Assembly (NCBI GenBank): GCA_963638555.1 | Contig: CAVHQU010000001.1 | Span: 169,309-233,308 of the forward strand | Reading direction: 5' to 3' | Length of the DNA: 64,000 bases | Origin: a bacterium | Lineage (GTDB): Bacteria > Bacillota_I > Bacilli_A > RFN20 > CAG-826 | Part shown: positions 3,958-48,302 of the stretch, in pieces | Numbering within the stretch: the first letter of the stretch is position 1 | Layout: each line of letters begins with the position of its first letter | Program-made: the position numbers and the translations under genes | Notes under the pieces: model-generated | What the model was told of the DNA's origin: nothing | Seen by the model: only the letters and a program-made list of their open reading frames with translations | Databases searched by the model: none

Positions 3958-4632
3958 ATGGATTCAATTCGTGTAATAAAGGTAAAACAAAGCGTATTTG
4001 CAAATAATAATGCAAGAGCCGCTGAAGTTAGAAAGAAGCTCAAAGAGAAAAATGTCTATCTTGTTAATTTAATGTCCTCTCCAGGAAGCGGAAAAACCAC
4101 ATTCTTGGTTGCCCTTATTAACAAATTGAAGAATGATCTTAGAATTGGCGTTATGGAAGCAGATATTGATGCTACAGTCGACGCAGAAACGATTTCAAAT
4201 AAGACAGGGGTCAAGTCAATTCAGATCCATACCTCAGGAGAATGTCATCTTGATGCTAAGATGGTCGATGACTCATTAGATGGATTTGGCGTTGATGATT
4301 TAGATTTGGTCTTCCTAGAAAACATTGGAAACCTTGTTTGTCCAGCTGAATTTGATACAGGGGCATCCTCTTCTTTCGAGTTGTTATCAATTCCTGAAGG
4401 CGATGATAAGCCTTTAAAATATCCACTTATGTTTACAGTGGCAAATGTTGTTATCTTTACTAAGATGGACGCAATCTCTGTTTTTGATTTTGATATTCAA
4501 AAAGCCGAAGAACGTATCCTTAAATTGAATCCAAACACTAAGTTCTTCCCCGTTTCTGCCAAAACTGGCCAAGGCATTGATGAATTGGCCGCTTATCTTC
4601 TTAAAGAAGTCAAAACTTATCAGGCAAAATAA
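3958..4632 (+). CDS. hypB: Nickel-insertion GTPase HypB (hydrogenase/urease accessory G3E family)
   Basis: Start moved to ATG 3958 (SD gagagg); the track ORF begins at 3868. P-loop LMSSPGSGKTT and the HypB motif ENIGNLVCPAEFD are present, with TKMD in place of NKxD. Confidence 0.85.
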   Translation: MDSIRVIKVKQSVFANNNARAAEVRKKLKEKNVYLVNLMSSPGSGKTTFLVALINKLKNDLRIGVMEADIDATVDAETISNKTGVKSIQIHTSGECHLDAKMVDDSLDGFGVDDLDLVFLENIGNLVCPAEFDTGASSSFELLSIPEGDDKPLKYPLMFTVANVVIFTKMDAISVFDFDIQKAEERILKLNPNTKFFPVSAKTGQGIDELAAYLLKEVKTYQAK

Positions 4633-7815: not shown

Positions 7816-8409
7816 ATGGAAAAGAAATTAATTATCGTCAGCGCACCGCCAGCAAGCGGCAAAACATATGTATCAAAGAAATTAGCCGAATCATTGGAAC
7901 ATGTTACATATTTAGATAAAGATAGCTTAGTTCCTCTTAGCAATGTTGCATATAAGATTGCAGGTCTTCCAGTTGAAAGAGAAGGCGAATTCTTTAAAAA
8001 GAACATTCGTGATGTTGAATATGATGTCATCCTAGAGATGGCTTTTACCGCTTTGCATTATGAAGATATCGTTTTAATTAACGCTCCATTCACAAAAGAA
8101 ATACATCACCCAGAGTATATTGAAACATTAAGAAAGAAACTCGCAGAGCAATACAACGCTCACTTAGTCATTGTCTGGGTTGTTTGCGATATTAAAACGG
8201 TTAAAGCAAGAATGATCGCAAGAAACTCGGATAGAGACGTTTTCAAGATTAAGAATTTTGATTCATGGGTTAAGACGCAAGATTTCAACATTCCGACATA
8301 TCTCAAAGTTGAAAATGATCCATATTCATTAGTTATATTTGATAACTCCAATGATGAAGTATTTGCTAAATCGATGAAAGATACTGTTGCATTGCTTGAA
8401 GAGAAATAA
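7816..8409 (+). CDS. P-loop NTPase / kinase-like ATP-binding protein
   Basis: 197 aa with Walker A at the N-terminus (SAPPASGKTYVSKKLA). Size and layout resemble AAA_33/zeta-toxin-like small-molecule kinases. Confidence 0.55.
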   Translation: MEKKLIIVSAPPASGKTYVSKKLAESLEHVTYLDKDSLVPLSNVAYKIAGLPVEREGEFFKKNIRDVEYDVILEMAFTALHYEDIVLINAPFTKEIHHPEYIETLRKKLAEQYNAHLVIVWVVCDIKTVKARMIARNSDRDVFKIKNFDSWVKTQDFNIPTYLKVENDPYSLVIFDNSNDEVFAKSMKDTVALLEEK

Positions 8410-8419
8410 GTTTCCATTG

Positions 8420-8441
8420 GCATCACGTTGTGATGCTTTTT
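8420..8441 (+). terminator. Rho-independent terminator
   Basis: Stem gcatcac/gtgatgc followed by ttttt. Confidence 0.55.
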
Positions 8442-8483
8442 CTTTAATTCATGGGGTGCGTGTGTTAATCTTTGCAAAAAAAT

Positions 8484-8521
8484 AGAAAAATAAAAACTGC
8501 ATTGGTTTAACCACAATGCAG
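8484..8521 (-). terminator. Rho-independent terminator of the glf-glucokinase unit
   Basis: Stem ctgcattg/caatgcag with a 9-nt loop. A T-run follows on the minus strand (tttttatttttc). Confidence 0.6.
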
Positions 8522-8538
8522 CTTTCAACGAATTGAAT

Positions 8539-27090: not shown

Positions 27091-30012
27091 ATGAAATTCA
27101 GAAAATTTAGAGGAGGTGCGGCAATTGGTGTTTGTGTTCTTTCATTGAGCACATTCGCTTCAATTCTTGCCTTTGAGAACTCTGGGCAAGTCGATATTGC
27201 CTTAGGCATCACAGGTGAGAAAAACACCAAACAAAGTGCATACTCTTCATTAGAAGAAATGCATGTCGCTGAAAAGGCAAATGAAATCCAAACGGAAGAA
27301 GAAGGTTCTGTCCTTTTCTACAATGAAAATAATGCTCTTCCATTATCTAATGCAAAGAAAGTTACTTTACTTGGCAGAACGGCTGCCGACAATATCTTCA
27401 AAGGCGGATCAGGCGGATCAACTACCACAGATGAAACTGCCACTTCCCTTTATGAAGCGTTAACTGCTCAAGGATATTCAATCAACGAAACAGTTTATAA
27501 TGCCTTAAAAGAATCACCAATCAAACGTGCTAGAGGCGATATTGGCGAAGTTCCTGCATCCTTCTACACGGATGATATGAAAAACTCTTTCAAAGAATAC
27601 GGTGATGCGGCCATCATCGTCTTGGGGAGATACTCTGGCGAGCAACAAGACTTGTGCGCTGGAGGTGACTCAGGTCAAGATAATGCGGTTGATGCCAATG
27701 GCGATCCTGTGGATTCTTCAGGTATTCGTATGCTCGCTCTTCATGATGAAGAAAGAGACATGATCAAGATGGCGGTTGAATCAAAAGCATTCTCCAAAGT
27801 CGTTGTCTTGCTTAACACTGTTAACCCAATGGAAATTGGTGAACTCAAAGGATTAGGCGTTGATGCATGTTTATGGGTTGGGATTCCTGGCTATACTGGT
27901 TTTGAAGGGGTTGCAAACATCCTTTCAGGAAAGGCAGATCCTTCAGGTCGTTTAGCTGATACATATGCTACTAACTCCTTAAGTGCGCCTGCAATGAGAA
28001 ACTATGGTTCATTTAACTGGGATAACATCACAGCTTCAGGTCAAAATAAGTACTTGGTTTATGCAGAAGATATTTATATTGGTTATAAATATTACGAAAC
28101 ACGTTACAACGATCAAATATTAGGTATCAACAATGCCACTTCAAGCAAAGGTTGCTATGCTTCCTCTTCTTCTTGGGATTATGCAGCCGAAATGGATTAC
28201 ACATTTGGCTATGGTACATCTTATGCTTCATTCACTCAAAAACTTGATTCATTAAAATGGGACAAGGACGCTCATACTGTCACCGCAAAAGTCACAGTTA
28301 AGAATGAAGGTTCAACTTCTTATACTGGCAAATCTAAGAATACTGTCGAATTATACGCTTCCCTTCCTTATGAAAAAGGCCAAGCGGCTAAATCAGCCAT
28401 TCAATTGATTGGCTATGGCAAAACAAAAGAGTTGGCTAAAGGTGAGGAAGATACAGTCACAATCACTGTTGATGATTATCTATTTGCAACATACGACCAA
28501 AACGCAACAAACGGAGCCGACACAACAAAGAAAGGCTGCTACACATTTGATGCAGGTGAATATTTCTTCGCTATTGGTGCTGATGCTCATGACGCATTAA
28601 ACAATGTTCTAGCTAAAAAAGGCAAAACAGGTCTCTTCGATGCAGATGGTAAATCTGTTTCAGGTGACGTCTCAAAGGTTGCAACTGATACTTTGGCTCA
28701 ATTGGATAACGTTACCCATGCAAAATCTCATGAGAATGAAAATGTTGTTGTTTCCAACCAGTTTGATGATATGGACATCAACTATTTCGAAGATAACGCA
28801 GTCACATATCTAACAAGAGATGATTGGAATACCTATCCAGTTCGTTATACAGGTTTATCTGCGACAGATGATATGAAAACTATCATCGATGGTCATACAT
28901 ATTCAAAACCAGCTGACGCACCAGACATCTCCGAATTCAAATATTCTCAAAAATATGATGAGACCATGATGCTAGCTGAACTCGTCAATGAGCCATATGA
29001 TTCCGATAAATGGGATACGTATATTGATCAATTAACGCCTTCTCAACTTGCCGCAATCACTGGCGAAAAGTTTGGCAACACAGGCTTAACTGACTATGGT
29101 TGCCCAGACAACTCTGCAGCCGATGGCCCAGATGGTATTCAAGCAAACACTGGCTTCTCTCATGTATGCGAAAACCTTGCAGCTTCAACATATAATGATG
29201 AATTATTGAAGAAACGTGGTGAATTCATGGCTGAAGACGGCATGTATTCAGGTCAAAACGGTGTTTATGGATTTGGTGCAAACATGCATAGAACCGTATA
29301 TGCCGGAAGAAACTTTGAATACTATTCCGAAGATATGATTCTTTCTTACCTTGCTGGCGCAGCCCAAACAAAAGCGGCCCAAGATAAAGGATTAACAACA
29401 TACGTTAAGCATTTCTGCGCTAACGACCAAGAAGTTTGGAGAAACGGTTCTTCAACAATCATGCGCGAACAAGCATATCGTCAAGGACCACTCAAAGGTT
29501 TTGAAGGCTCCTTCACCAAAGGAGAATCTCTTGGAACGATGACCTCTAACGCCCGTGTTGGCTTTAGAACAGTTTCTATGGACTATGGCACTATGACAAC
29601 TGTTCTTAGAAACGAATGGGGATTTAAAGGAACGGCCATGACCGACTCCTCTAAAGGTTCAACTCATTATCTCTATACAAAGGAATCAGTTGCAGCTGGT
29701 ATCGATCAATTTAACAACGACGAAACCAGAGGAACAACAGACATGAAAAACTATCTCATCAAGGAAAAAGATGGTTATCTTTGGAAGAGGGCAAGGGAGA
29801 TAGCCCATCACTACTTCTACACAATCTCTAGAAACTTCTGTATGTCTGGTTTATCAAAAGACACAGTTGTCGAATCAAAGACATCTTGGTGGAAAACAGC
29901 ATTAATCGCTTTAATAAGCGTTGAAGCAGTTATCACAGTCGGCTTAGCTGGCACAGCTGCCGTTGGGGGAATCCTCTCCTACAGCAAAAAAAGAAAGGAA
30001 GGTAACGAATAA
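27091..30012 (+). CDS. Glycoside hydrolase family 3 (beta-glucosidase-like), domain-permuted, with N- and C-terminal membrane anchors
   Basis: The GH3 C-terminal-type domain comes first (KVTLLGRTA..; PSGRLADTY). An Fn3-like block follows (FGYGTSYASF). The catalytic barrel blocks come last (KHFCANDQE; GFKGTAMTDS). The protein ends in a TM helix plus KKRKEGNE. Confidence 0.8.
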   Translation: MKFRKFRGGAAIGVCVLSLSTFASILAFENSGQVDIALGITGEKNTKQSAYSSLEEMHVAEKANEIQTEEEGSVLFYNENNALPLSNAKKVTLLGRTAADNIFKGGSGGSTTTDETATSLYEALTAQGYSINETVYNALKESPIKRARGDIGEVPASFYTDDMKNSFKEYGDAAIIVLGRYSGEQQDLCAGGDSGQDNAVDANGDPVDSSGIRMLALHDEERDMIKMAVESKAFSKVVVLLNTVNPMEIGELKGLGVDACLWVGIPGYTGFEGVANILSGKADPSGRLADTYATNSLSAPAMRNYGSFNWDNITASGQNKYLVYAEDIYIGYKYYETRYNDQILGINNATSSKGCYASSSSWDYAAEMDYTFGYGTSYASFTQKLDSLKWDKDAHTVTAKVTVKNEGSTSYTGKSKNTVELYASLPYEKGQAAKSAIQLIGYGKTKELAKGEEDTVTITVDDYLFATYDQNATNGADTTKKGCYTFDAGEYFFAIGADAHDALNNVLAKKGKTGLFDADGKSVSGDVSKVATDTLAQLDNVTHAKSHENENVVVSNQFDDMDINYFEDNAVTYLTRDDWNTYPVRYTGLSATDDMKTIIDGHTYSKPADAPDISEFKYSQKYDETMMLAELVNEPYDSDKWDTYIDQLTPSQLAAITGEKFGNTGLTDYGCPDNSAADGPDGIQANTGFSHVCENLAASTYNDELLKKRGEFMAEDGMYSGQNGVYGFGANMHRTVYAGRNFEYYSEDMILSYLAGAAQTKAAQDKGLTTYVKHFCANDQEVWRNGSSTIMREQAYRQGPLKGFEGSFTKGESLGTMTSNARVGFRTVSMDYGTMTTVLRNEWGFKGTAMTDSSKGSTHYLYTKESVAAGIDQFNNDETRGTTDMKNYLIKEKDGYLWKRAREIAHHYFYTISRNFCMSGLSKDTVVESKTSWWKTALIALISVEAVITVGLAGTAAVGGILSYSKKRKEGNE

Positions 30013-30449
30013 TGAATAACTACATCAAAGGGACCTTGCTTAGAAAAAGAAATATAGGCGAATGGATTACATTAGGCGTCAGCGTCTATATGTTAATCGT
30101 TGCAATCGTTTATCTTATTCTTGATGGCGGAGCAATGAAAATTCCAGATTACTCTAAAACATTAGCGTTCTGGATGTTGATTGCTGGCTCCATACTTGGA
30201 TTATCAACCGCTTTCTATGACGTTCGTTTCCTCAATTCAAGCATTACCCTAGTCTCGTTCGCCTGTTTCTCCGTTGCGGCTGGAAGACAACTCTATCTTG
30301 CCGGTTATCCAATTGCCGATTTAGCTACTGGAGTCAACTGGTTTGGCGGAAGCCTAGGTATTTACCTTGGCATGTTCATCGCGATGATGATTGGCGTTAT
30401 CGTCGAAATATTCGCATTATTCATGAAACAAAGTAAATTTGAAGACTAA
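30012..30449 (+). CDS. Small 4-TM membrane protein co-transcribed with GH3
   Basis: 145-aa ORF whose ATG overlaps the GH3 stop (TAATG). Four hydrophobic helices. Confidence 0.55.
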   Translation: MNNYIKGTLLRKRNIGEWITLGVSVYMLIVAIVYLILDGGAMKIPDYSKTLAFWMLIAGSILGLSTAFYDVRFLNSSITLVSFACFSVAAGRQLYLAGYPIADLATGVNWFGGSLGIYLGMFIAMMIGVIVEIFALFMKQSKFED

Positions 30450-32422: not shown

Positions 32423-32449
32423 AAGCGTTACATGATGTAACGCTTTTTT
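32423..32449 (+). terminator. Rho-independent terminator
   Basis: Stem aagcgttac/gtaacgctt followed by a T-run. Confidence 0.65.
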
Positions 32450-32470
32450 GTTACGTTTGTTTCATTATAA

Positions 32471-32499
32471 TTGAATTTTAACTAAATTTTACATATACT
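32471..32499 (+). promoter_or_regulatory. Sigma-A-type promoter TTGAAT-N17-TATACT for the A1-B1-A2-B2 cassette
   Basis: -35 at 32471-32476 and -10 at 32494-32499. The predicted start site coincides with ATG 32506. Confidence 0.5.
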
Positions 32500-32518
32500 T
32501 TCGTCATGAGAAAAAAAT

Positions 32519-34108
32519 ATGTGCCAAAAATTATCGCACCTTCTTCTATTTATCTCTACAATCGTCTCCGTTTCTAATTTTGGCGTATCAAGAAGTCAAA
32601 AGTCTACTAACGAAAAAACGTTTTTTTCTAGGAAACTTATTCGTTCAACCAAGAAATCAGAAAAGAATGAGGATTCCTATTTTGATTATAAATTTGATGG
32701 AGCAAACGAATACCGGGAATCTAATGGCGATGAATTTGAAAAAGTTGATTGTATAAACGGCTCAAATTCATCAATAAAAATTCAAAATGAACCGGGCCGA
32801 GAAACTGTATTGAAAGCAGTTACTGAGCCAAATAGTGAAAGCACAAAAACGATTTCATATAACGATATCAAAGAGAATAATGATACTTTTTTAACTGCAA
32901 CCAATATGTATTCAGTTGGTTCATATAAGGACGGAATCACAAAAATGTGGTCTTGGCGTTATGCGACCATAAATCAAAAAACGGAGGGACCGCTTTGGTG
33001 GAAGAAAACATACATTGATAAAGATTTTTATTCGTTCGATGTAGCTTGCAGCGGAACGTTAAATATTTCTTTAACTGAGATTCCATCGAATTGTGACTAT
33101 GACATGCGTTTATATAGATTAGAAGATGAAATAAACGCAAACGCCGCTACATTAAATTTTGATAACTATGAAGGGTGCAGCCGAAATTCAAAAGGCCAGG
33201 ATGAATATATCTCATACTCTGTTGTGCCTGGAACATATTATATTTGTGTTTATTCATATAACGATCAAACTTATGATAATGACAATCCGTATAAAATTAC
33301 GTTTGAAGAAATATCTAATTCCGGAACAAGCGAAACTTCTTACTATATAGATGTCGGGAGAGTTGAAAACGACATAGGAGCTATATGGATAAGTGATTAC
33401 TCTCCTTTCGGTTTATCGCCGATGACTTTAACGGACACCCAAGCAAGGAAAAAATTCACAAACTATGATTGTTACCCATATATACAACATTTAGCGAACA
33501 ATTATGAAGATTGTAGCATCAATTTCGCAGTTCTTTACCTCTGGAATTTGCAAGCGCGTGCTTATATATATGCTTGGGCACAAAACATATTGAACTCATT
33601 ATACAATTACAATAATTGGGCAAATGATTCTGTAAGTTCTTTTGGGGTCCATTTAAACGATGCTTCAATGGCAGTAACAGTTGGTGGGACAATCATAAAC
33701 ACAATAAGCGAAGCCACAATCGCAGAAACTGCAAAAGCCGCTTTAAACTCATTAGGCTTTTTATCCAGTCTCGCTGGATCTGTGATATCTCTAATTTCTT
33801 TTGTGAACTCATTTTCTTTGGAGAATGAGTTTCAAATCAGCAGAAAGAATTTGATTCAATATTTGGTTAATATCAAGGCGGCCTTTGAAATAGGAACCGG
33901 CAGTAACGAAGATCAAACGATAATGCTTAAATTCAGATATCACTTCAGTGAAAAACAATATATTGATTGGTCACCAAGGTACGAATTAGGCGAAGCAAAT
34001 ATGCATAATGAAGATTACGTTTCACTTCAAATTCCAGGTAGTGGGATAAAAGGAACGGCACATGGAATACACTCAACAACCGATTTAGAAAAATATTTAA
34101 GGAGTTAA
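32519..34108 (+). CDS. Secreted protein A1: signal peptide, PPC (pre-peptidase C-terminal)-like domain, novel C-terminal domain with hydrophobic helical hairpin
   Basis: PPC-like pattern NDTFLTAT..DKDFYSFDV..GTLNISL..NCDYDMRLY..PGTYYICVYSY..NPYKITFEE. Hydrophobic stretch at about nt 33660-33810. Homologous to 34605-36176. The true start may be ATG 32506 (see findings). Confidence 0.7.
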   Translation: MCQKLSHLLLFISTIVSVSNFGVSRSQKSTNEKTFFSRKLIRSTKKSEKNEDSYFDYKFDGANEYRESNGDEFEKVDCINGSNSSIKIQNEPGRETVLKAVTEPNSESTKTISYNDIKENNDTFLTATNMYSVGSYKDGITKMWSWRYATINQKTEGPLWWKKTYIDKDFYSFDVACSGTLNISLTEIPSNCDYDMRLYRLEDEINANAATLNFDNYEGCSRNSKGQDEYISYSVVPGTYYICVYSYNDQTYDNDNPYKITFEEISNSGTSETSYYIDVGRVENDIGAIWISDYSPFGLSPMTLTDTQARKKFTNYDCYPYIQHLANNYEDCSINFAVLYLWNLQARAYIYAWAQNILNSLYNYNNWANDSVSSFGVHLNDASMAVTVGGTIINTISEATIAETAKAALNSLGFLSSLAGSVISLISFVNSFSLENEFQISRKNLIQYLVNIKAAFEIGTGSNEDQTIMLKFRYHFSEKQYIDWSPRYELGEANMHNEDYVSLQIPGSGIKGTAHGIHSTTDLEKYLRS

Positions 34109-34110
34109 TC

Positions 34111-34608
34111 ATGATAGAAAAAAATTACATAATCAGCAAATCTCAGCATTTTAAATGGAAATTCAGAAGTGCTTGGCCATTTTATTTAGTGATGGTTTCA
34201 TCCTTTTTGGCAGCATTTTCTTCTTTTGTTGCTATCGGCTGTAAAATCAATTTAAATCAAATGGACAATTCTTATTTCTTTTTATACATAATCTTCTTAG
34301 TTTGTCTTCCTTTAGGACTATTAACGTTACGTTTAATCATTAATTTTTCAAATAAAATTCTTTTCGAAGATGTCAAAGTAGAAATAGACCCATTCACCAA
34401 AACAATAACCGTCACTAGTAAGGATGACAGGGGCAATGTACTAACGACCATAAATAAAATTGCATATAAAAAGGAAAAGAAAAAATATTTCATATTGGGC
34501 AGAGAATGGGGGCGTTTCTTTTACGTCCCGAAAGCCGGAATGAAGAAAGACGACATTAAAACAATCAGAGCAATAAAACCATTGAAAGTTGAGAAATATC
34601 ATCAATGA
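34111..34608 (+). CDS. Small 2-TM protein B1, YcxB-like (candidate immunity/partner protein)
   Basis: SD aaggag, 2 nt after the A1 stop. Two TM helices, then a C-terminal KKYFILGREWGRFFYVPKAGMKKDDIKTIRAIK block (YcxB-like, from memory). Confidence 0.6.
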   Translation: MIEKNYIISKSQHFKWKFRSAWPFYLVMVSSFLAAFSSFVAIGCKINLNQMDNSYFFLYIIFLVCLPLGLLTLRLIINFSNKILFEDVKVEIDPFTKTITVTSKDDRGNVLTTINKIAYKKEKKKYFILGREWGRFFYVPKAGMKKDDIKTIRAIKPLKVEKYHQ

Positions 34609-36176
34609 GAAATCACAAAATCACAAAAAACATATCTTTAGCTTTTTTATTCATTTTATCATCATTGACGCCCTCAGCAAGAAGTCAAAACCTATCATTC
34701 TTTAGTGGGCAAAAAATAAGCAAAAGATTAGAACTCCAAGCATCTAAAAAGGATGATTCAAATTTTGATTATGAATTTGATACTTCTTCCTCTTTCTCAA
34801 ACAATGGGTCCGACGAATTCGAATCTATGGGATTAAACGATGGAAAACGGTCAGGAGAAAAAATAGAAAATAATAACGGGGAAATTTATGTCACAAAAAA
34901 TGAAAACAATGTTACTAAAAGTGATATTTCTACAGCAACTTATAACGATAGCTGCGAAAACAATGACTCTTTTTTAACCGCTTCAAGTGCTTATGCCGTT
35001 GGCACGAACGATGGTGGAATATATAAACATTGGGTTTGGTGCTATGCAACAATTAGTCAAAAAACTGAAGGCATGCTTTGGTGGAAACAGACCTATATAG
35101 ACAAGGATTTCTATTCTTTTGATGTAGTTTCGGTTGGAACTTTAAAGGTTACTTTAAGTGATATTCCTACTAATTGTGATTATGATCTACGTTTATATAA
35201 AATTGAAGACAAATTAGAATGCTCATATGCCAGTTGTAACTTTGATGATCCGATTGCCTCAAGTGCAAATGCATCGAATACGGATGAGAATGTTTCGATT
35301 TCGGTTAAACCTGGAACATATTACGCTTGTGTCTATTCTTACAAAGACCAAACTTTTGATAACAACAACCCATATAAATTGACATTTGAAGAGGATGTAG
35401 ATGACACAAGGTATGGTTCATATTATTCTATAAATAATGGAAGAAATGATGGAGATTTAGGTGCAGTATGGCGCAGCGACTACAAACCGTTAGGAATTAC
35501 TCCAGTAAACATATCAGAAGAAAACGCCCAAGTAGGTCTTGCAAATTCATCCACTTATCCGTACATAAAGCATTTGATTGATAAATATTCTTCTGACGAA
35601 AAAATTACATACGCCATAGTTTATGTATGGGATGTTGAACTAAGAGCGTTGATACGATCTGCATTACAATTGATATTAGAAGAAATCTACGAAAGAGAGG
35701 AAACATATTTCAATGCATTTAATATAAGTTGGAATGCGGCAAATTTATTTATTTCAATAGGCGGCCTTATTGTAAGCACTATATCTTTGGCTAATATAGC
35801 AACATCGGCTTTATTAACTGGTGCAATAACCGCAACTTCACTTTCGATGGGTTTTATTTCAACAATTTTATCATTTGCTATAGGTTATCAATTCCAAATA
35901 GAAAGACAAGAATTGATAAATTATTTAATAAATGCAATAAGCGCCTTTGAAGTTGGAAAAGGAAGCAATAATAAAGAAGTCGTAATGTTAAAGTTCAAAT
36001 ATAGGTTCATTAAAAAAGAACGTTGGTATTTAGATTGGACTCCATCTTATGATGTAGATGGTCAAAATAGATATAACGAAGATCAAATTACTCATCAATT
36101 GAAAGGAAGTCCAATAAACGGAAGGATAATAGGTTTTCAAGACGAACACACTCTATACAACTTATTAGGATTTTAG
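34605..36176 (+). CDS. Secreted protein A2 (paralog of A1)
   Basis: ATGA overlap with B1. Signal peptide MRNHKITKNISLAFLFILSSLTPSA. Same PPC block (TYIDKDFYSFDV, NCDYDLRLY, PGTYYACVYSY, NPYKLTFEE) and same C-terminal architecture (YPYIKHL, MLKFKYRF). Confidence 0.75.
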   Translation: MRNHKITKNISLAFLFILSSLTPSARSQNLSFFSGQKISKRLELQASKKDDSNFDYEFDTSSSFSNNGSDEFESMGLNDGKRSGEKIENNNGEIYVTKNENNVTKSDISTATYNDSCENNDSFLTASSAYAVGTNDGGIYKHWVWCYATISQKTEGMLWWKQTYIDKDFYSFDVVSVGTLKVTLSDIPTNCDYDLRLYKIEDKLECSYASCNFDDPIASSANASNTDENVSISVKPGTYYACVYSYKDQTFDNNNPYKLTFEEDVDDTRYGSYYSINNGRNDGDLGAVWRSDYKPLGITPVNISEENAQVGLANSSTYPYIKHLIDKYSSDEKITYAIVYVWDVELRALIRSALQLILEEIYEREETYFNAFNISWNAANLFISIGGLIVSTISLANIATSALLTGAITATSLSMGFISTILSFAIGYQFQIERQELINYLINAISAFEVGKGSNNKEVVMLKFKYRFIKKERWYLDWTPSYDVDGQNRYNEDQITHQLKGSPINGRIIGFQDEHTLYNLLGF

Positions 36177-36178
36177 CT

Positions 36179-36661
36179 ATGGAAAATTTAGTAATGGTTT
36201 TAAATGTTAGTGGTTTAAGGAAATGGAAATTTCAATCAGGATGGGGCTACCTAATACCAGCAATTATAGTCATCCCATTTTCAATTTTTATTGCCGTTGA
36301 ACTCATTTTAAGCGTAAATGGTAATATCGAAAGACTTCAAACTGCAAACATATATACATATTGGTACTTCATATCATTATTGTTATTACCATCGTCAATA
36401 ATGCCATATAAGCATTACTCCAAGGAAATGTATGGTAAACAGTTAAAATTGAAAGTTTCATTCGACGAAAAAGTTGTAACCGGGACATTCATGGCAAAAA
36501 ATGGAGATACTCGTTCTAACAAAATAGAAATTGAATATGTAAAAGAATATGTCAAATATTTTAAGATTGGAAGAAGTTTCTACAACTTCTATTTCCTTCC
36601 AAAAAGCAAATTATCTAAAGAGCAATTAGAAGCAATTAGAAGCTTAAAAAAGCCTAATTAG
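36179..36661 (+). CDS. Small 2-TM protein B2 (divergent paralog of B1)
   Basis: Starts 2 nt after the A2 stop. RKWKFQSGW and VKYFKIGRSFYNFYFLPKSKLSKEQLEAIRSLK mirror the B1 blocks. Confidence 0.6.
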   Translation: MENLVMVLNVSGLRKWKFQSGWGYLIPAIIVIPFSIFIAVELILSVNGNIERLQTANIYTYWYFISLLLLPSSIMPYKHYSKEMYGKQLKLKVSFDEKVVTGTFMAKNGDTRSNKIEIEYVKEYVKYFKIGRSFYNFYFLPKSKLSKEQLEAIRSLKKPN

Positions 36662-36904
36662 AAATACACGCCTCCGCTATTTTTAAAATCTTTAACAGTT
36701 TTTTCTAATATAAATTCGTTTTCGGTTTGAGTAAGAATTTTGCATTTATTACCATTTCTATACTCACCATCAGAATCGGCTAAATTAAGAGTTTTCATTC
36801 CTTTTAATTCAAGTTCATATGTGTTGACATAACCGCCACTCTCATATTTGCTAGCTCATAAGTTGGTTGTCAATTATTTCATTTGAACCATGATAAACTA
36901 TCAT
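36658..36904 (-). pseudogene. Frameshifted remnant of a small gene (N-terminus MIVYHGSNEIIDN, DUF3990-like from memory)
   Basis: A 17-codon ORF from ATG 36904 ends at TAG. A +1-shifted frame then continues ..SKYESGGYVNTYELELKG..KDFKNSGGVYF* to 36658. Neither piece passes the ORF-track length cutoff. Confidence 0.25.
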
Positions 36905-43102: not shown

Positions 43103-45709
43103 ATGAAAAAACAAATATTAATTACCAGTGCGGCTATGCTTATGGCATTAGCTGCCACTGGTTGTAACGGAAACAATCAAAGTTCAGAAAGCGACGTTGC
43201 TTCGTCAGATGATTCTACGAGCAGCGTTGCTTCCTCCTCATCCGCTTCACCAATCATCGTTGATGATTTCTCTGAAGCATTAAGCAATACACGTTACTAC
43301 GCAATCACGAGCTCATCCGGCGAGAAAACATATTACACAGAAGTTTTTACTGATAACTTCTACTATAGTGGCACTAGCTCATCCGGATACATGATTCCCG
43401 AAGAAGATAGTGGATACATCCACCCAGTATCGGGCAATTACAGTGATGGCGAAGATGGTTCATATTCTTTAGCAATTAACGTTTATGGGCGTGTAGCTGA
43501 AGCCAAGCAATATTCAGTTATCAGAAGTTCTACATTCTTAGGTTTGGTCAATAATTACGTAAAAACTTTCGAAAAGGTAAGTGATACAAAATTCAAATCT
43601 ACTGATGAAACTCTTATTTCTGAAGTTGCATATTTCTTTGAATCCAAATTGCTTCGCTACGCCAATAACATCGTTTTTGATGTTGATGACTTAGGCAGAA
43701 TTTCTCATCTCTACATTAACGAAGACGATGAATCACTCATGGATTCAGCAATCTCTGAGGTCGAACGTACAGATGTCTACCTATATAACGACTGGGTAAA
43801 GAATGGCTCAATTATTGAAGATCGTATCCAAGACTACAAGAACTTAGATAGCGCTCTTCTTAACCCAAAGTCTCTTTACAATAACCAAATCGTCAAATTC
43901 AACGCAATAGTCACTGGTGTCGATGACAATGGTGATGTCTATGTTGCCCAAACAGATTCAACAGGCGTTAACATTGGCATGCGTATCGAAGGAGTCTCTA
44001 ACAAAAACTTCGAAGTCTATGACAATGTCGTAGTTGAAACCACAATTGCAACAAATAACAATGTTGTTTACGGTACGAATGGTGTTATTACATACGTCTC
44101 TGAAGGCAATTATATTCCTCAATTTTCTGAAGAGGGGATTGTTGATTACTATGGTGGAGGATACTATGCCTACTACTATTTCTCTTCTTCTACATACTAC
44201 GCTGATTCGATCTATACGACATATGCATATGTTGCTACATTGCCAGAATTGGTTTCCGGTAAGGATTTAGTCGTATCACTTGTCTTCCCTAATGTTTACA
44301 GCGCTACCGAGACTTATTATGCAAGTTTTGTCCTTCCTTCATATTTAAACGATGAAACAAGAACATTGGCATATAACACTCTTAAAGCAGCTGGTATCTA
44401 TGGCGAAGATGATGCATATGAATTATGTTTTGACTCAATCATCATGAGAAGAAACGCTTCAGTTAAAGGTTTCTCCCTTCAACTCCTCCCAAGTTCTTTA
44501 ATTTATAAGAAGCTTACGGCCGTTCAAAAGATTGAACAAATATGTGGCTTAGCAAACTTCCCGTTGCCAACAAGCGTCACTCCTTTATCATATAAATTTG
44601 GTAAAGGCACTGACTACAATCTTGAATCACAATATGGAATCACAACCAGCGATAACGTTAACGGTTTGTTCGTTGGCGAAACTGATATTTCAGAAGATGA
44701 CTACAATACATTTATCTCTAGCCTAGAGACAATAGGTGTCACCAAATATGATGAAATAGAGGATACGTATAGCTATCGTCACCTCATTTACACATATAAT
44801 GGCTACATCATTGATACGATGTTTGTTGCAGCCACTTGGATTGGGGCTTCAAACCAATTAAGTATCTGGATTTATAAATCCGATACCGCAAATATAGTTA
44901 GATGCCCAACCGTTCAAGAACGCATAAAGGAAAAAGCCCCATGGTTTGATTCTTCATCTTTCTTGAGATATGCAGATAGCTATGACGCAGATTATCACGT
45001 CTTTGAAATTAGTAATTACGCTAACGTTCAATATGACGAACCACTAATCGCCGTAACATTAGATCTCAACACAAATGTTGGCGAAGATTACAAAAAGACT
45101 CTTGTTCAGACGATGGGTTATAAGCAATACAAAGTTGATGGTAAATCCTATACCTATAAATCAAGAGGACAAGTCCATTACGTCTTTCAAAAAGATGAAG
45201 GCCAATTCGTTGATGTTGCTACATATCCAACAACCGATTATACATACACGGGTCACGCCAAATGGAATTACCGTGTTGAAATACTAATCTATCGTGGAGA
45301 TGCTCCAATCACTGTTCCAACCTATTCTGATTTGACTCCTCTATCAGATTTGTATGCGGCTAAGGATTCTTCTCTTGCATATGCCTCAGCATTACCAAGC
45401 GACGCTAAAGTCGAAGTATGGAAAGATATGTGGGAAGATGATCCATATTATGATCTTCTCAAATATGGCTATTGTCACCGTGATGAAGCGTTCGTATACA
45501 CATCAAATATTGATGAAGCATACGAATCAATCAAGACAGGCTTAGCAAACGCTGGATATAAAGAGTCCGAAACATATGAAGAATATGAAAACTGCACTCT
45601 TTATAGCAGGGTCTTCAAAGGTGAATATTATTACGTATTCGTCATGAAAACCACAAAAGGCTATGTACGCGTCATAAACGACTTAGGCGGCATGGATTTC
45701 TATAGTTAA
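43103..45709 (+). CDS. Large surface lipoprotein
   Basis: MKKQILITSAAMLMALAATGC lipobox followed by a Ser-rich tract. 868 aa, no domain I recognise. Confidence 0.7.
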   Translation: MKKQILITSAAMLMALAATGCNGNNQSSESDVASSDDSTSSVASSSSASPIIVDDFSEALSNTRYYAITSSSGEKTYYTEVFTDNFYYSGTSSSGYMIPEEDSGYIHPVSGNYSDGEDGSYSLAINVYGRVAEAKQYSVIRSSTFLGLVNNYVKTFEKVSDTKFKSTDETLISEVAYFFESKLLRYANNIVFDVDDLGRISHLYINEDDESLMDSAISEVERTDVYLYNDWVKNGSIIEDRIQDYKNLDSALLNPKSLYNNQIVKFNAIVTGVDDNGDVYVAQTDSTGVNIGMRIEGVSNKNFEVYDNVVVETTIATNNNVVYGTNGVITYVSEGNYIPQFSEEGIVDYYGGGYYAYYYFSSSTYYADSIYTTYAYVATLPELVSGKDLVVSLVFPNVYSATETYYASFVLPSYLNDETRTLAYNTLKAAGIYGEDDAYELCFDSIIMRRNASVKGFSLQLLPSSLIYKKLTAVQKIEQICGLANFPLPTSVTPLSYKFGKGTDYNLESQYGITTSDNVNGLFVGETDISEDDYNTFISSLETIGVTKYDEIEDTYSYRHLIYTYNGYIIDTMFVAATWIGASNQLSIWIYKSDTANIVRCPTVQERIKEKAPWFDSSSFLRYADSYDADYHVFEISNYANVQYDEPLIAVTLDLNTNVGEDYKKTLVQTMGYKQYKVDGKSYTYKSRGQVHYVFQKDEGQFVDVATYPTTDYTYTGHAKWNYRVEILIYRGDAPITVPTYSDLTPLSDLYAAKDSSLAYASALPSDAKVEVWKDMWEDDPYYDLLKYGYCHRDEAFVYTSNIDEAYESIKTGLANAGYKESETYEEYENCTLYSRVFKGEYYYVFVMKTTKGYVRVINDLGGMDFYS

Positions 45710-46734: not shown

Positions 46735-46807
46735 ATAACAAATTTCTCTTATTACATCGTTTATAAATATCCATTTTTGCAAGCTTAATAAAATCTTCAT
46801 CATTTAA

Positions 46808-46843
46808 ATCAAAAATGTGAGATAGTTTTCTTCTATCTCACAT
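46808..46843 (-). terminator. Rho-independent terminator of the small minus-strand unit
   Basis: 11-bp stem atgtgagatag/ctatctcacat with a 7-nt loop and ttttt on the minus strand. Confidence 0.6.
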
Positions 46844-46918
46844 GCTTATGGTTTGAATCTATGTAAACTATATATTCTTATTACTATATTGGCATTACCT
46901 TATCTTACCTCCTAGTAA

Positions 46919-47089
46919 CTAATCTCTCTGAAGATCCCATAAATCTTCGAATGAGTCTTTCGTTCCCATCATTGTATTTAAATTTTCGATTAATAAGTCG
47001 GTTGATGGTAACTCAACTTCTAACCCAGTTCTACTATTTTGAATTTCTATCATATATTATCTTTTAAGAATTCCCTTCCTTAGTTTCAT
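46919..47089 (-). pseudogene. 56-codon small gene interrupted by an in-frame TAA (10-aa + 44-aa pieces)
   Basis: Strong SD aaaggagg 8 nt before ATG 47089. Reads MKLRKGILKR-TAA-Y-MIEIQNSRTGLEVELPSTDLLIENLNTMMGTKDSFEDLWDLQRD*, both pieces in the same frame. Confidence 0.4.
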
Positions 47090-47152
47090 AAGAGCTACCT
47101 CCTTTAATTCAAGAGTAACATTTTCTTTGTTTTTGTTTCTCTTGATGGCAAC

Positions 47153-47181
47153 ATTATGACCTATTATGTAATGATTGTCAA
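47153..47181 (-). promoter_or_regulatory. Consensus-like promoter TTGACA-N17-CATAAT
   Basis: Minus strand reads TTGACAatcattacataataggtCATAAT, about 60 nt upstream of ATG 47089. Confidence 0.55.
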
Positions 47182-47313
47182 TACCTAAAGTAACATTTTT
47201 TTATTTTCGTAACTTTATTATATACTGTATAGAAAAATCTAGTATGTAATTGCCCTTTTGATAAAGGAGCGTATTCTAACAGTAGAAACGAAACAGCATA
47301 GAGAGGAACAACT

Positions 47314-47844
47314 ATGGGCTTTAAAACAGGCGGTGGCAATCATTTACAAGCATACGACATAAAAACCGGTCAATATACCGACGAGGAATTACATGAAATG
47401 AAGAAAAAGGATATGGAGAATCTAGTCTTTGTGCAATATATTTGGTTATGACATTTCAAAATATCCGTTCCATTATCCAAAAATGAAAATACATGATAGA
47501 GATTATTGTCAAACATTCATAGAATATTTCCGAAAACAGATAACTTCATTTCATATTGATAATCGTAAGATGCTATATCTCCTTACCTGGCACGAAAAGG
47601 ACGATAAAAGCAAATACCTTGAGAAAATAGGTTATTCAAAAGAAAGGCCTGATGAATTAAGTAAAGATTAAAATTTGCATTCAAAAGAGAAAGATTAATA
47701 TTTTCTAGATTGGACGAATATGGTTTGAATTGCGTCGAAGAAATCGAACTCAAAGGGCATAAAGTAAAAACATATTGGCAAATTAATTTAGATGATTCTT
47801 CAGCCAAATTTGTTACATTAATACCAGGAGGGTTAAAGAAATGA
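47314..47844 (+). pseudogene. Disrupted gene with DUF6883-like C-terminal region (three frame segments)
   Basis: Segment 1 (47314-47451) reads MGFKTGGGNHLQAYD... Segment 2 (47429-47671) reads ..LTWHEKDDKSKYLEKIGYSKERPDELSKD*. Segment 3 runs to 47844 (..LDEYGLNCVEEIELKGHKVKTYWQINLDDSSAKFVTLIPGG..). The final TGA overlaps the next ATG. Confidence 0.5.
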
Positions 47845-48050
47845 ACGTTAAAATTGGCGATTGCATAAAGACATTAGTAGATAAAACAACTTACATGGAA
47901 GATAGCGATTATTTTATCGTTAAAAAAGGAAGTGAAGGACTTGTATGCGAAGTCTACAACGATGGCGGAGTACTTGTCGAAATCGAAGAAAACGACGAAC
48001 ATCCGTTTGCATTAGTTTCTTACAGAGCAGATGAGTATGAAAAATCTTGA
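47841..48050 (+). CDS. DUF4926-like small protein
   Basis: 69 aa: KIGDCIKTLVD...VKKGSEGLVCEVYNDGGVLVEIEE...ALVSYRADEY. This fits the pattern of that family as I recall it. Confidence 0.55.
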   Translation: MNVKIGDCIKTLVDKTTYMEDSDYFIVKKGSEGLVCEVYNDGGVLVEIEENDEHPFALVSYRADEYEKS

Positions 48051-48061
48051 AAGCCTTTATT

Positions 48062-48294
48062 ATGTATAAAGTTAAGACTTCCATTAAAATTGGTTATCGC
48101 ATAAAACATTAGTAGATAAAACCACATATTGGGGAGATAGTGGCAATTTTCTATTGCCAAAAGGCAGTGAAGGCCTCGTATGTGAAGTTTATGATGAAAC
48201 GATTCTTGTGGAATTCGCAGAAACAAGTGAACGTTCATTCGCTTTACAAGACTATAAAATCGGCGAATACGAAATAATAAGTAAGGACGATTGA
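48062..48294 (+). pseudogene. Second DUF4926-like copy inactivated by a 1-nt deletion
   Basis: Copy 1 reads attggcgattgcataaagacattagtagat. Copy 2 reads attggttatcgcataaaacattagtagat, which is one base shorter and gives TAG TAG in frame. Downstream the shifted frame reads LVDKTTYWGDSGNFLLPKGSEGLVCEVYDETILVEFAE... Confidence 0.55.
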
Positions 48295-48302
48295 GAATTC
48301 AA

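What the first reader, a model, noticed from the sequence alone, without database searches (positions are those of the whole stretch)
32471..36661. Tandemly duplicated two-gene cassette: secreted PPC-domain protein with hydrophobic-hairpin C-domain plus small 2-TM YcxB-like protein
Seen in sequence: four tightly coupled genes in the order A1-B1-A2-B2 (junctions +2 nt, ATGA overlap, +2 nt). They lie between a terminator at 32423-32449 and the end of B2. A1 (529 aa) and A2 (523 aa) are homologous along their full length. Shared blocks include ENND(T/S)FLTA, YATI(N/S)QKTEG, TYIDKDFYSFDV, NCDYD(M/L)RLY, PGTYY.CVYSY, NPYK(I/L)TFEE, YPYI(Q/K)HL and MLKF(R/K)Y. Their N-terminal ~100 aa are divergent. 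Each A protein has a signal peptide, a PPC-type beta-sandwich and a ~260-aa C-terminal domain I do not recognise. That domain contains a ~45-aa uncharged hydrophobic segment long enough for a helical hairpin (about nt 33660-33810 and 35740-35890). B1 and B2 (165 and 160 aa) are much more diverged. They keep two TM helices and a C-terminal (K/V)KYF.(L/I)GR....F(Y/F).PK....(D/E)....IR block. Inference: fast-diverging duplication, a secreted large protein with a buried hydrophobic hairpin and a cognate small membrane protein together resemble pore-forming bacteriocin/immunity pairs (colicin-like logic). A surface adhesin with a membrane partner is an alternative. I recognise no catalytic domain.
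Basis: partly seen in the sequence, partly recalled or inferred. Interest (0 to 1): 0.8.

Follow-up and report, generated by a model that had tools for sequence, protein, structure and literature searches.

The report
Co-varying secreted protein and membrane partner
Uncultured gut Bacilli carry a duplicated, previously undescribed gene pair, an exported protein of unknown fold and a small membrane protein, whose hydrophobic parts vary together between strains; this suggests a new toxin–immunity or self-recognition system.

Summary
The four genes exist as described: A1 32519-34108, B1 34111-34608, A2 34605-36176, B2 36179-36661, with junctions of +2 nt, an ATGA overlap and +2 nt. A1/A2 are 42% identical (E 6e-141) and B1/B2 28% (E 5e-19).

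Each A has an N-terminal hydrophobic leader, a PPC/collagen-binding-like β-sandwich and a ~265-aa C-terminal domain. That domain has no Pfam, PDB or viral-structure match. It carries a 63-71-aa, G/A/S/T-rich, marginally hydrophobic insert. Each B is a two-TM protein with a predicted cytoplasmic C-terminal domain. Its YcxB hits are sub-threshold.

The family is rare: 34 clusters among 5.8 billion proteins, all from uncultured gut Bacilli assemblies. A is almost always followed by a small two-TM gene, as are five of six longer distant relatives.

Between near-identical loci (~97% nt), identity collapses in only two blocks: A's hydrophobic insert and B's TM hairpin. These two blocks co-vary (ρ 0.84 in close pairs). 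Synonymous divergence is also high there, so they are mosaics of old alleles.

Best reading (~0.45): a membrane-inserting secreted toxin with a cognate intramembrane immunity protein. Rivals are an Ids-like identity pair or an anchored surface complex. No colicin- or Bcl-2-like fold was found.

The parts
32423..32455 (+). Intrinsic terminator of the upstream aminopeptidase gene; it sets the 5' boundary of the operon.
   Evidence: 10-bp stem with a 3-nt loop followed by a T run; sequence read.
32471..32499 (+). Promoter-like site (TTGAAT, 17 nt, TATACT) 20 nt upstream of A1.
   Evidence: Consensus scan, 9 of 12 matches. Weak evidence: the region holds fewer such sites than its shuffles.
32519..34108 (+). 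A1, 529 aa: N-terminal hydrophobic leader, variable linker, PPC β-sandwich, and a new C-terminal α/β domain.
   Evidence: ORF. 42% identical to A2. AlphaFold model with pLDDT 78 and pTM 0.79.
32873..33304 (+). A1 PPC / collagen-binding-like β-sandwich (aa ~119-262, starting at the ENNDTF motif).
33305..34105 (+). A1 C-terminal domain (aa 263-529), an uncharacterised family and fold.
33614..33826 (+). A1 hypervariable, marginally hydrophobic insert (aa 366-436; 45% G/A/S/T).
   Evidence: Least conserved region of the family at 24% mean identity. It is the block that collapses between near-identical alleles. Modelled as 3 β-strands, a helix and a low-confidence loop at 411-424.
34111..34608 (+). 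B1, 165 aa: basic N-tail, two TM helices, and an ~85-aa basic C-terminal domain predicted to be cytoplasmic.
   Evidence: ORF. AGGAG ribosome-binding site. TM segments and charge distribution.
34177..34350 (+). B1 TM hairpin (aa ~23-80), equivalent to the hypervariable block of the B family.
   Evidence: Hydropathy. Co-variation with the A insert.
34605..36176 (+). A2, 523 aa, paralogue of A1. It is the closer window counterpart of the single A gene in the partly syntenic loci L030/L031.
   Evidence: ORF with ATGA overlap onto B1. PF04151 at aa 166-245. GMP synthase gene downstream, as in L030.
35697..35885 (+). A2 hypervariable hydrophobic insert (aa ~365-427), lying within a 66-aa uncharged run (367-432).
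   Evidence: Only 27% identical to the A1 insert.
36179..36661 (+). B2, 160 aa, paralogue of B1 (28% identity).
   Evidence: ORF. BLASTP E 5e-19. TAGGA ribosome-binding site.
36236..36406 (+). B2 TM hairpin region (aa ~20-76); the second helix is weakly hydrophobic.

Best explanation
The locus holds two diverged copies of a two-gene module.

A is exported by the Sec pathway (inferred from its leader). It carries a PPC/collagen-binding-like β-sandwich, probably for binding a surface ligand. It also carries a ~265-aa α/β domain of new fold, which holds a 63-71-aa insert that is rich in small residues and marginally hydrophobic.

B is translationally coupled to A. It is a two-TM protein with both ends predicted to face the cytoplasm, so only its TM hairpin and a short loop can meet an exported protein.

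It is shown that A's insert and B's hairpin are the two hypervariable parts and that they vary together. From this I infer that they contact each other inside the membrane.

Most likely mechanism (inferred): A is a secreted antibacterial toxin whose insert unfolds from the domain and enters the cytoplasmic membrane of related cells, forming a pore or depolarising it. The cognate B in the producer binds that segment in the membrane and blocks it. Allele diversity would be kept by frequency-dependent selection and recombination. The tandem A1B1-A2B2 arrangement would give one cell two specificities.
For: ARCHITECTURE AND COUPLING.

CONSERVED ADJACENCY.
- 19 of 21 genome loci have a two-TM gene within -4 to +16 nt. 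A B-like ORF is also found in L013.
- Further loci with the same arrangement: L024/25, L030-35, and L040, L041, L043-L046, L048 and L049.
- Long-form relatives L026, L028, L029, L036-38 and L039 also have one.

CO-VARIATION.
- L030 and L031 are 97% identical in nucleotide sequence. Identity drops to 65% (minimum 30%) in the A insert and to 56% in the 5' part of B. The 220 nt between the blocks are 94% identical, and the 3' part of B is 97%.
- L032/L033 show the same pattern.
- In 20 close pairs, Spearman correlation of A insert with B hairpin is 0.84. For A insert with the B C-terminal domain it is 0.13.
- Synonymous divergence is 1.8-2.2 in the blocks against 0.06-0.19 around them, which indicates imported old alleles.

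OTHER FEATURES.
- B topology follows the positive-inside rule.
- The most hydrophobic part of the insert (aa 411-424) is the only low-confidence stretch of the domain.
- Several loci per genome, A-B-B' variants, decayed copies and copy-number differences at a partly syntenic site fit an accessory competition locus.
- Immunity proteins for antibacterial pore-formers normally sit in the cytoplasmic membrane and are specific (PMC9558359).
Against: - No sequence or fold similarity to any toxin.
- AlphaFold packs residues 372-410 of the insert into the domain as β-strands and a helix with pLDDT 83-93. A hairpin is therefore not shown.
- dN/dS in the variable blocks is 0.2-0.4, below 1. Relaxed constraint on lipid-facing residues combined with recombination could explain part of the pattern.
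- In L032/L033 the synonymous divergence spans the whole 3' part of the locus, which is consistent with one recombination tract.
- Neighbouring genes are housekeeping. No regulator, exporter or lysis gene is present.
- No solitary 'orphan' B genes were seen, although the survey was small.
- A ~55-kDa protein would have to cross the target's cell wall.
- Pairs in the correlation are not phylogenetically independent.
Confidence: 0.45

Rival explanations
1. A non-lethal, allele-restricted recognition pair that works like Proteus IdsD/IdsE. Exported A meets B in the membrane of a neighbour or of the same cell. Matching hydrophobic variable regions signal 'self', which changes behaviour or adhesion rather than killing.
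For: The anatomy is the same as described for Ids. There is a large exported protein with a variable region over predicted membrane segments. Next to it is a gene for a two-TM protein with a β-rich C-terminal domain. In Ids, the variable regions determine allele-restricted binding (PMC4471559). Co-varying blocks and old alleles are seen here.
Against: No homology to Ids was tested or found. Ids depends on a type VI secretion system in a Gram-negative host, and no secretion apparatus is present here. Nothing in the data separates lethal from non-lethal outcomes.
Confidence: 0.2
2. A surface complex of the producer. A is held on the cell by its hydrophobic insert, which sits beside B's TM hairpin, and it uses the PPC domain to bind a host or dietary polymer. 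B would be an anchor or assembly partner. Variation would reflect weak constraint on membrane-embedded residues, compensatory change and recombination.
For: - The PPC domain resembles collagenase collagen-binding domains.
- Long-form relatives add more PPC-like and Big_2 domains, as adhesins do.
- The best 19-mer of the A insert is borderline for membrane integration: median +0.7 kcal/mol on a rough scale recalled from memory.
- dN/dS is below 1.
- The genomic neighbourhood is housekeeping.
Against: - The second hydrophobic stretch of the A insert is too polar for a stable hairpin anchor in most members: median +3.5.
- Weak constraint alone does not explain the raised synonymous divergence.
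- It also does not explain two separate blocks embedded in 94-100% identical DNA.
- A structural anchor gives no reason for many old alleles at one partly syntenic site, or for divergent tandem pairs.
Confidence: 0.2
3. A is a secreted enzyme with a new catalytic domain, and B is a functionally unrelated small membrane protein that happens to be co-transcribed.
For: PPC domains usually accompany secreted hydrolases (Pfam description).
Against: - The invariant residues of the C-terminal domain are mostly aromatic, Gly, Pro or hydrophobic.
- No conserved His or Cys, or other triad-like set, is present.
- A-B adjacency and block co-variation argue against an unrelated B.
Confidence: 0.05

Closest known systems
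Pore-forming colicins (A, E1, Ia, K, 5, 10) and their inner-membrane immunity proteins
   Same: A modular exported protein with a binding module and a membrane-inserting hydrophobic element. The adjacent gene encodes a small polytopic membrane protein. Specificity is expected to lie in membrane-embedded segments (review PMC9558359; details of colicin specificity mapping are from my own knowledge).
   Different: - The leader is Sec-type rather than lysis-dependent release.
- The host is Gram-positive-type, with no Tol/Ton translocation domain.
- The partner has two TM helices and a cytoplasmic domain, not three or four TM helices.
Proteus mirabilis IdsD/IdsE self-identity pair
   Same: An exported large protein and an adjacently encoded two-TM protein with a β-rich C-terminal domain. 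In both proteins the variable regions overlap predicted membrane segments and determine allele-restricted binding (PMC4471559).
   Different: Ids export depends on a type VI secretion system in a Gram-negative bacterium, and its outcome is non-lethal. Homology was not tested here. The variable blocks here are longer (63-71 aa in A and ~75 aa in B).
T7SS membrane-depolarising toxins with membrane immunity proteins (S. aureus TspA/TsaI)
   Same: A polymorphic, membrane-active antibacterial toxin of Bacillota, neutralised by a membrane immunity protein encoded next to it (PMC9558359).
   Different: TspA is an LXG-type T7SS substrate with a colicin-Ia-like fold and arrays of immunity genes. A has an N-terminal leader, a PPC domain and a new fold, and no T7SS genes lie nearby.
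YcxB-like family (PF14317)
   Same: A small protein with a basic N-tail, two TM helices and a short β-rich C-terminal domain ending in a hydrophobic-x-(I/V)PK-like motif. Weak hits fall at the right place in B1 and B2. The description of typical YcxB-family architecture is from my own knowledge.
   Different: Scores are below Pfam's cut-off: 14.8 and 13.5 bits against 23.3. Only 2 of 21 family members give any hit. None of the database homologues carries a precomputed Pfam domain.

Membership tests
PPC / pre-peptidase C-terminal domain (PF04151), collagen-binding-domain fold | Profile match above Pfam's gathering score | tested here: met
   A1 44.3 bits and A2 31.8 bits against a cut-off of 25.9.
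PPC / pre-peptidase C-terminal domain (PF04151), collagen-binding-domain fold | β-sandwich fold superposable on solved PPC / collagen-binding domains | tested here: met
   [not shown]
YcxB-like protein (PF14317) | Profile match at or above the gathering score (23.3 bits) | tested here: not met
   B1 14.8 bits (E 0.025) and B2 13.5 bits (E 0.062). Only 2 of 21 B-family members give any hit.
YcxB-like protein (PF14317) | PH-like fold of the soluble part | not tested
Colicin-type pore-forming domain | Sequence match to the colicin pore-forming family, or a ten-helix bundle with a central hydrophobic helical hairpin | tested here: not met
   [not shown]
Toxin-immunity pair (bacteriocin-like) | Tight, conserved linkage of the large exported gene and the small membrane gene | tested here: met
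Toxin-immunity pair (bacteriocin-like) | Matched allelic diversity in the two partners | tested here: met
   Two hypervariable blocks lie in otherwise ~97% identical loci. Correlation is 0.84 in close pairs.
Toxin-immunity pair (bacteriocin-like) | Toxicity of A and specific protection by the cognate B | not testable with these tools
   Needs expression and membrane-potential assays.
Ids-like self-recognition pair | Variable regions over membrane segments in both partners | tested here: met
   compared with PMC4471559.
Ids-like self-recognition pair | Homology to IdsD/IdsE and T6SS-dependent export | not tested
No secretion-system genes were seen next to any locus.
Anti-phage defence systems / phage proteins | Match to PADLOC or PHROGs models, or presence on phage or plasmid records | tested here: not met
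   No hits.

The most novel reading that the evidence does not exclude
A-B may be the founding example of a Sec-dependent antagonism or identity system in gut Bacilli. In it, an exported protein of new fold would carry a swappable hydrophobic 'code' segment that is read inside the membrane by the TM hairpin of a small partner. Many old alleles would be kept in the population by frequency-dependent selection.
Probability: 0.4. Interest if true: 0.8.

Novelty: new variant of a known kind. Interest (0 to 1): 0.66.

Why it matters
The host lineages are uncultured, genome-reduced gut Bacilli, and nothing is known about how their strains compete or recognise each other. If A/B is a toxin-immunity or identity pair, it adds a new protein fold to the membrane-active effectors. 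It also gives a natural set of matched intramembrane recognition pairs for studying how TM-TM specificity is encoded. Finally, it provides a strain-level marker locus for these organisms in metagenomes. The co-varying blocks make the idea directly testable by swapping segments.

Tried and rejected
SEARCHES THAT FOUND NOTHING.
- PDB sequence searches with A1, with the C-terminal-domain profile and with the B profile gave noise only.
- NCBIfam, PHROGs and PADLOC gave nothing.
- Plasmid and phage tblastn and a viral-contig scan gave nothing. A mobile-element or phage origin is therefore not supported.
- Rfam and tRNA scans of the window were empty.
- A literature search for YcxB found nothing functional.

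WEAK LEADS REJECTED.
- A DUF4231 (SLATT-type two-TM) hit over the A1 insert has E 0.06, occurs in one member only, and was rejected as compositional.
- Profile-profile comparison of short-form and long-form B proteins gave probability 1.7%. The long-form partners share the architecture but are not shown to be homologous.
- A B-profile database search found only 11 close relatives and no link to a named family.

IDEAS CONSIDERED AND DROPPED.
- Positive selection acting in place is not supported, because dN/dS is below 1 and dS is also raised. The blocks are better read as a mosaic of old alleles.
- A diversity-generating retroelement was considered and dropped. I saw no reverse-transcriptase gene among the genes listed for these loci, and there are two separate, fully diverged blocks.
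- Excision of the insert as a small hydrophobic bacteriocin was considered and dropped. The insert is part of a confidently folded domain, and I saw no processing genes among the neighbours.
- The 46-aa ORF downstream of B2 is unrelated to the 46-aa gene next to A in L024.


Full report
OBSERVATION

The four ORFs are present on the + strand:
- A1: 32519-34108, 529 aa
- B1: 34111-34608, 165 aa
- A2: 34605-36176, 523 aa
- B2: 36179-36661, 160 aa

The junctions are +2 nt, an ATGA overlap and +2 nt. AGGAG lies 7 nt before the B1 start codon, and TAGGA precedes B2. The operon follows an intrinsic terminator at 32423-32445 plus a T run, and a promoter-like site at 32471-32499.

A1 and A2 are 42% identical over their full length (E 6e-141). 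B1 and B2 are 28% identical (E 5e-19). All quoted sequence blocks are in those alignments.

Three minor corrections apply. The uncharged stretch is 66 aa in A2 but only 28 aa in A1. B2's second TM helix is weak. The signal peptides are inferred by inspection only.

WHAT THE PROTEINS ARE

Invariant residues in the domain are mainly aromatic, Gly, Pro and hydrophobic, so no catalytic set is evident.

In the middle of the domain sits a 63-71-aa insert (A1 aa 366-436; A2 aa ~365-427). It is 36-52% Gly/Ala/Ser/Thr across the family, with few charges. AlphaFold draws residues 372-397 as three β-strands and 398-410 as a helix. The most hydrophobic stretch (411-424) is left at low confidence. A helical hairpin is therefore not shown.

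On a rough hydrophobicity scale recalled from memory, the best 19-mer of the insert is borderline for membrane integration (median +0.7 kcal/mol). The second-best is not (+3.5). B's helices score -0.6 and +0.9.

B has a basic N-tail, two TM helices joined by a 6-31-aa loop, and a basic C-terminal domain of ~76-90 aa. By the positive-inside rule, both ends are cytoplasmic. The YcxB hits are sub-threshold, and only 2 of 21 family members give one.

DISTRIBUTION AND CONTEXT

The A family is very small: 34 clusters at 90% identity among 5.8 billion proteins, all ~500-535 aa when complete. The genome hits are metagenome-assembled genomes of uncultured gut Bacilli. Their labels include Bacillales bacterium UBA4682, Candidatus Enterosoma and uncultured Mollicutes; a few bins carry other, probably unreliable, labels. 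Several genomes hold two or three loci.

A full profile search with the C-terminal domain finds 107 representative proteins among 1.84 billion. The distant ones are 600-900 aa. The full-length long-form sequences I read (P0059, P0063) begin with a leader, and six of the ten scanned have a PPC domain before this domain (six of ten scanned matched PF04151 at E ≤ 0.001). They add further PPC-like repeats or a Big_2 domain.

A is followed within -4 to +16 nt by a small two-TM gene in 19 of 21 genome loci, and a B-like ORF is also detected in L013. The same holds in further metagenome loci.

Seven loci have the order A-B-B'. Two sets of loci are decayed: L008 and L043 have a truncated A and B, and L020 has a split A.

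Five of six long-form relatives examined also have a 138-171-aa two-TM gene downstream. These are not detectably homologous to the short-form B family (hhalign probability 1.7%).

Neighbouring genes are housekeeping and differ between lineages. No secretion, regulation, lysis or mobility genes recur. There are no relatives on plasmids, phages or viral contigs.

The tandem A-B-A-B arrangement recurs in another metagenome, next to the same GMP synthase, methyltransferase and α/β-hydrolase genes (L034/L035). Loci L030/L031, which share only the GMP synthase neighbour, carry a single pair. Copy number therefore varies.

THE KEY RESULT

In close relatives, one region of A departs from the rest. Identity percentages by region:

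| Pair | N-terminal | PPC | First half of C-domain | Insert | Second half of C-domain |
|---|---|---|---|---|---|
| P0005/P0006 | 99 | 94 | 94 | 53 | 92 |
| P0008/P0013 | 96 | 99 | 84 | 39 | 82 |
| P0032/P0034 | 100 | 97 | 91 | 49 | 83 |

At the DNA level, loci L030 and L031 compare as follows:

| Region (L030 coordinates) | Nucleotide identity |
|---|---|
| First 1010 nt of A | 97.3% |
| A insert block (nt 4011-4340) | 65% (30-nt windows fall to 30%) |
| 220 nt between the two blocks | 94% (100% over part) |
| Block covering the end of A and B aa 1-77 (N-tail and both TM helices) | 56% |
| 3' part of B | 97% |

L032/L033 show the same two protein-level blocks.

Across 20 locus pairs whose A backbone is at least 75% identical:
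- A insert versus B hairpin: Spearman ρ 0.84
- A insert versus B C-terminal domain: ρ 0.13
- A backbone versus B C-terminal domain: ρ 0.69

The pairs are not independent, so these are descriptive figures and not tests. In A-B-B' loci, the hairpins of both B and B' follow the insert.

Synonymous divergence is also high in the blocks. In L030/L031, dS is 2.2 and 1.8 there, against 0.06-0.19 around them. dN/dS is 0.2-0.4, which is higher than in the flanks but below 1. The blocks are therefore old alleles placed into a recent common background by recombination. They are not sites of recent positive selection.

The L033 allele of both blocks resembles the L001-L005 type more than its near-identical partner L032 does. 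This fits allele sharing across lineages.

HOW IT MOST LIKELY WORKS

B exposes only its hairpin and a short loop to the outside. The hairpin is exactly what co-varies with A's hydrophobic insert. The simplest inference is a direct, allele-specific contact between the two inside the membrane.

I rank three readings.

(1) Toxin and immunity protein, probability 0.45. A is a secreted, membrane-inserting antibacterial toxin, and B is its membrane immunity protein. This has the logic of pore-forming colicins and of T7SS or T6SS membrane toxins, whose immunity proteins sit in the cytoplasmic membrane and are specific (PMC9558359). It explains the old, matched alleles, the divergent tandem pairs, the extra B' genes, the multiple loci per genome and the decayed copies.

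(2) Identity pair, probability 0.2. This would be a non-lethal pair like Proteus IdsD/IdsE. There, variable regions over membrane segments of an exported protein and a two-TM neighbour set allele-restricted binding (PMC4471559).

(3) Surface complex of the producer, probability 0.2. A would be held by its insert beside B, with the PPC domain binding a polymer. Part of the variation could then be weak constraint plus compensation. However, the raised dS and the two separate blocks in L030/L031 fit this poorly.

A secreted enzyme with an unrelated neighbour is unlikely (0.05).

Shown: gene structure, homology, the PPC domain, conserved adjacency, block co-variation and the absence of known relatives. 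Inferred: export, membrane insertion, toxicity and protection.

COMPARISON AND NOVELTY

The system works most like a colicin-type pore-former with its immunity protein, or like IdsD/IdsE, but it is a member of neither. The colicin fold and family tests were run and failed. Ids homology was not tested. B fails Pfam's YcxB threshold. Only the PPC assignment is a true membership.

I rate the finding a new variant of a known kind. The principle is familiar: an exported effector with a cognate membrane partner and matched polymorphism. The protein families are new, the effector domain appears to have a new fold, export is by Sec, and the host group is unstudied.

Interest is moderately high. The co-varying blocks give a concrete swap experiment, and nothing is known about antagonism or recognition in these uncultured gut Bacilli. 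Background on their cell envelopes is in PMC10868615.

Noticed in passing
L010, L011, L012, L016-L019 (e.g. L016:7550-8056 and 8053-8529): In one clade, A is followed by two paralogous small two-TM genes (A-B-B') that overlap by 1-4 nt. The TM regions of both B and B' are more variable than their C-terminal domains, and both track the A insert.
   Followed up: partly
L008:6019-7623, L043:2024-3497, L020:5953-7508: Decayed copies of the module. In L008 and L043, A is truncated to ~366-393 aa and B is split or shortened to 91 aa. In L020, A is split into two overlapping ORFs while B stays intact.
   Followed up: no
window 36658-36798 (-): A 46-aa convergent ORF overlaps the B2 stop codon by 4 nt. 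It has no Pfam hit and is not similar to the 46-aa gene next to A in L024. No terminator was detected between B2 and the convergent α/β-hydrolase gene.
   Followed up: partly
window 27091-30449 (+): A 973-aa glycoside hydrolase family 3 protein has its domains in permuted order (GH3 C-domain, Fn3-like, GH3 N-domain) and a C-terminal TM segment. Its stop codon overlaps the start of a 145-aa hydrophobic, probably multi-TM, protein with no Pfam match.
   Followed up: partly
window 43103-45709 (+): An 868-aa protein with a lipoprotein-type leader (…LAATGC) and no Pfam match.
   Followed up: no
L027:4148-5110: One long-form relative (P0077, 903 aa, with a Big_2 domain) is followed by a 320-aa lipoprotein instead of a two-TM gene. 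This is the one exception among six long-form loci examined.
   Followed up: no
L036:9472-13908: About 700 nt downstream of the long-form A-B pair lies a 1478-aa protein with several N-terminal hydrophobic segments and no Pfam hit.
   Followed up: no
window 46735-48302: A stretch of ~1.5 kb holds only short ORFs (80 aa or less) and has low G+C (~31%). It contains no tRNA or Rfam match.
   Followed up: partly
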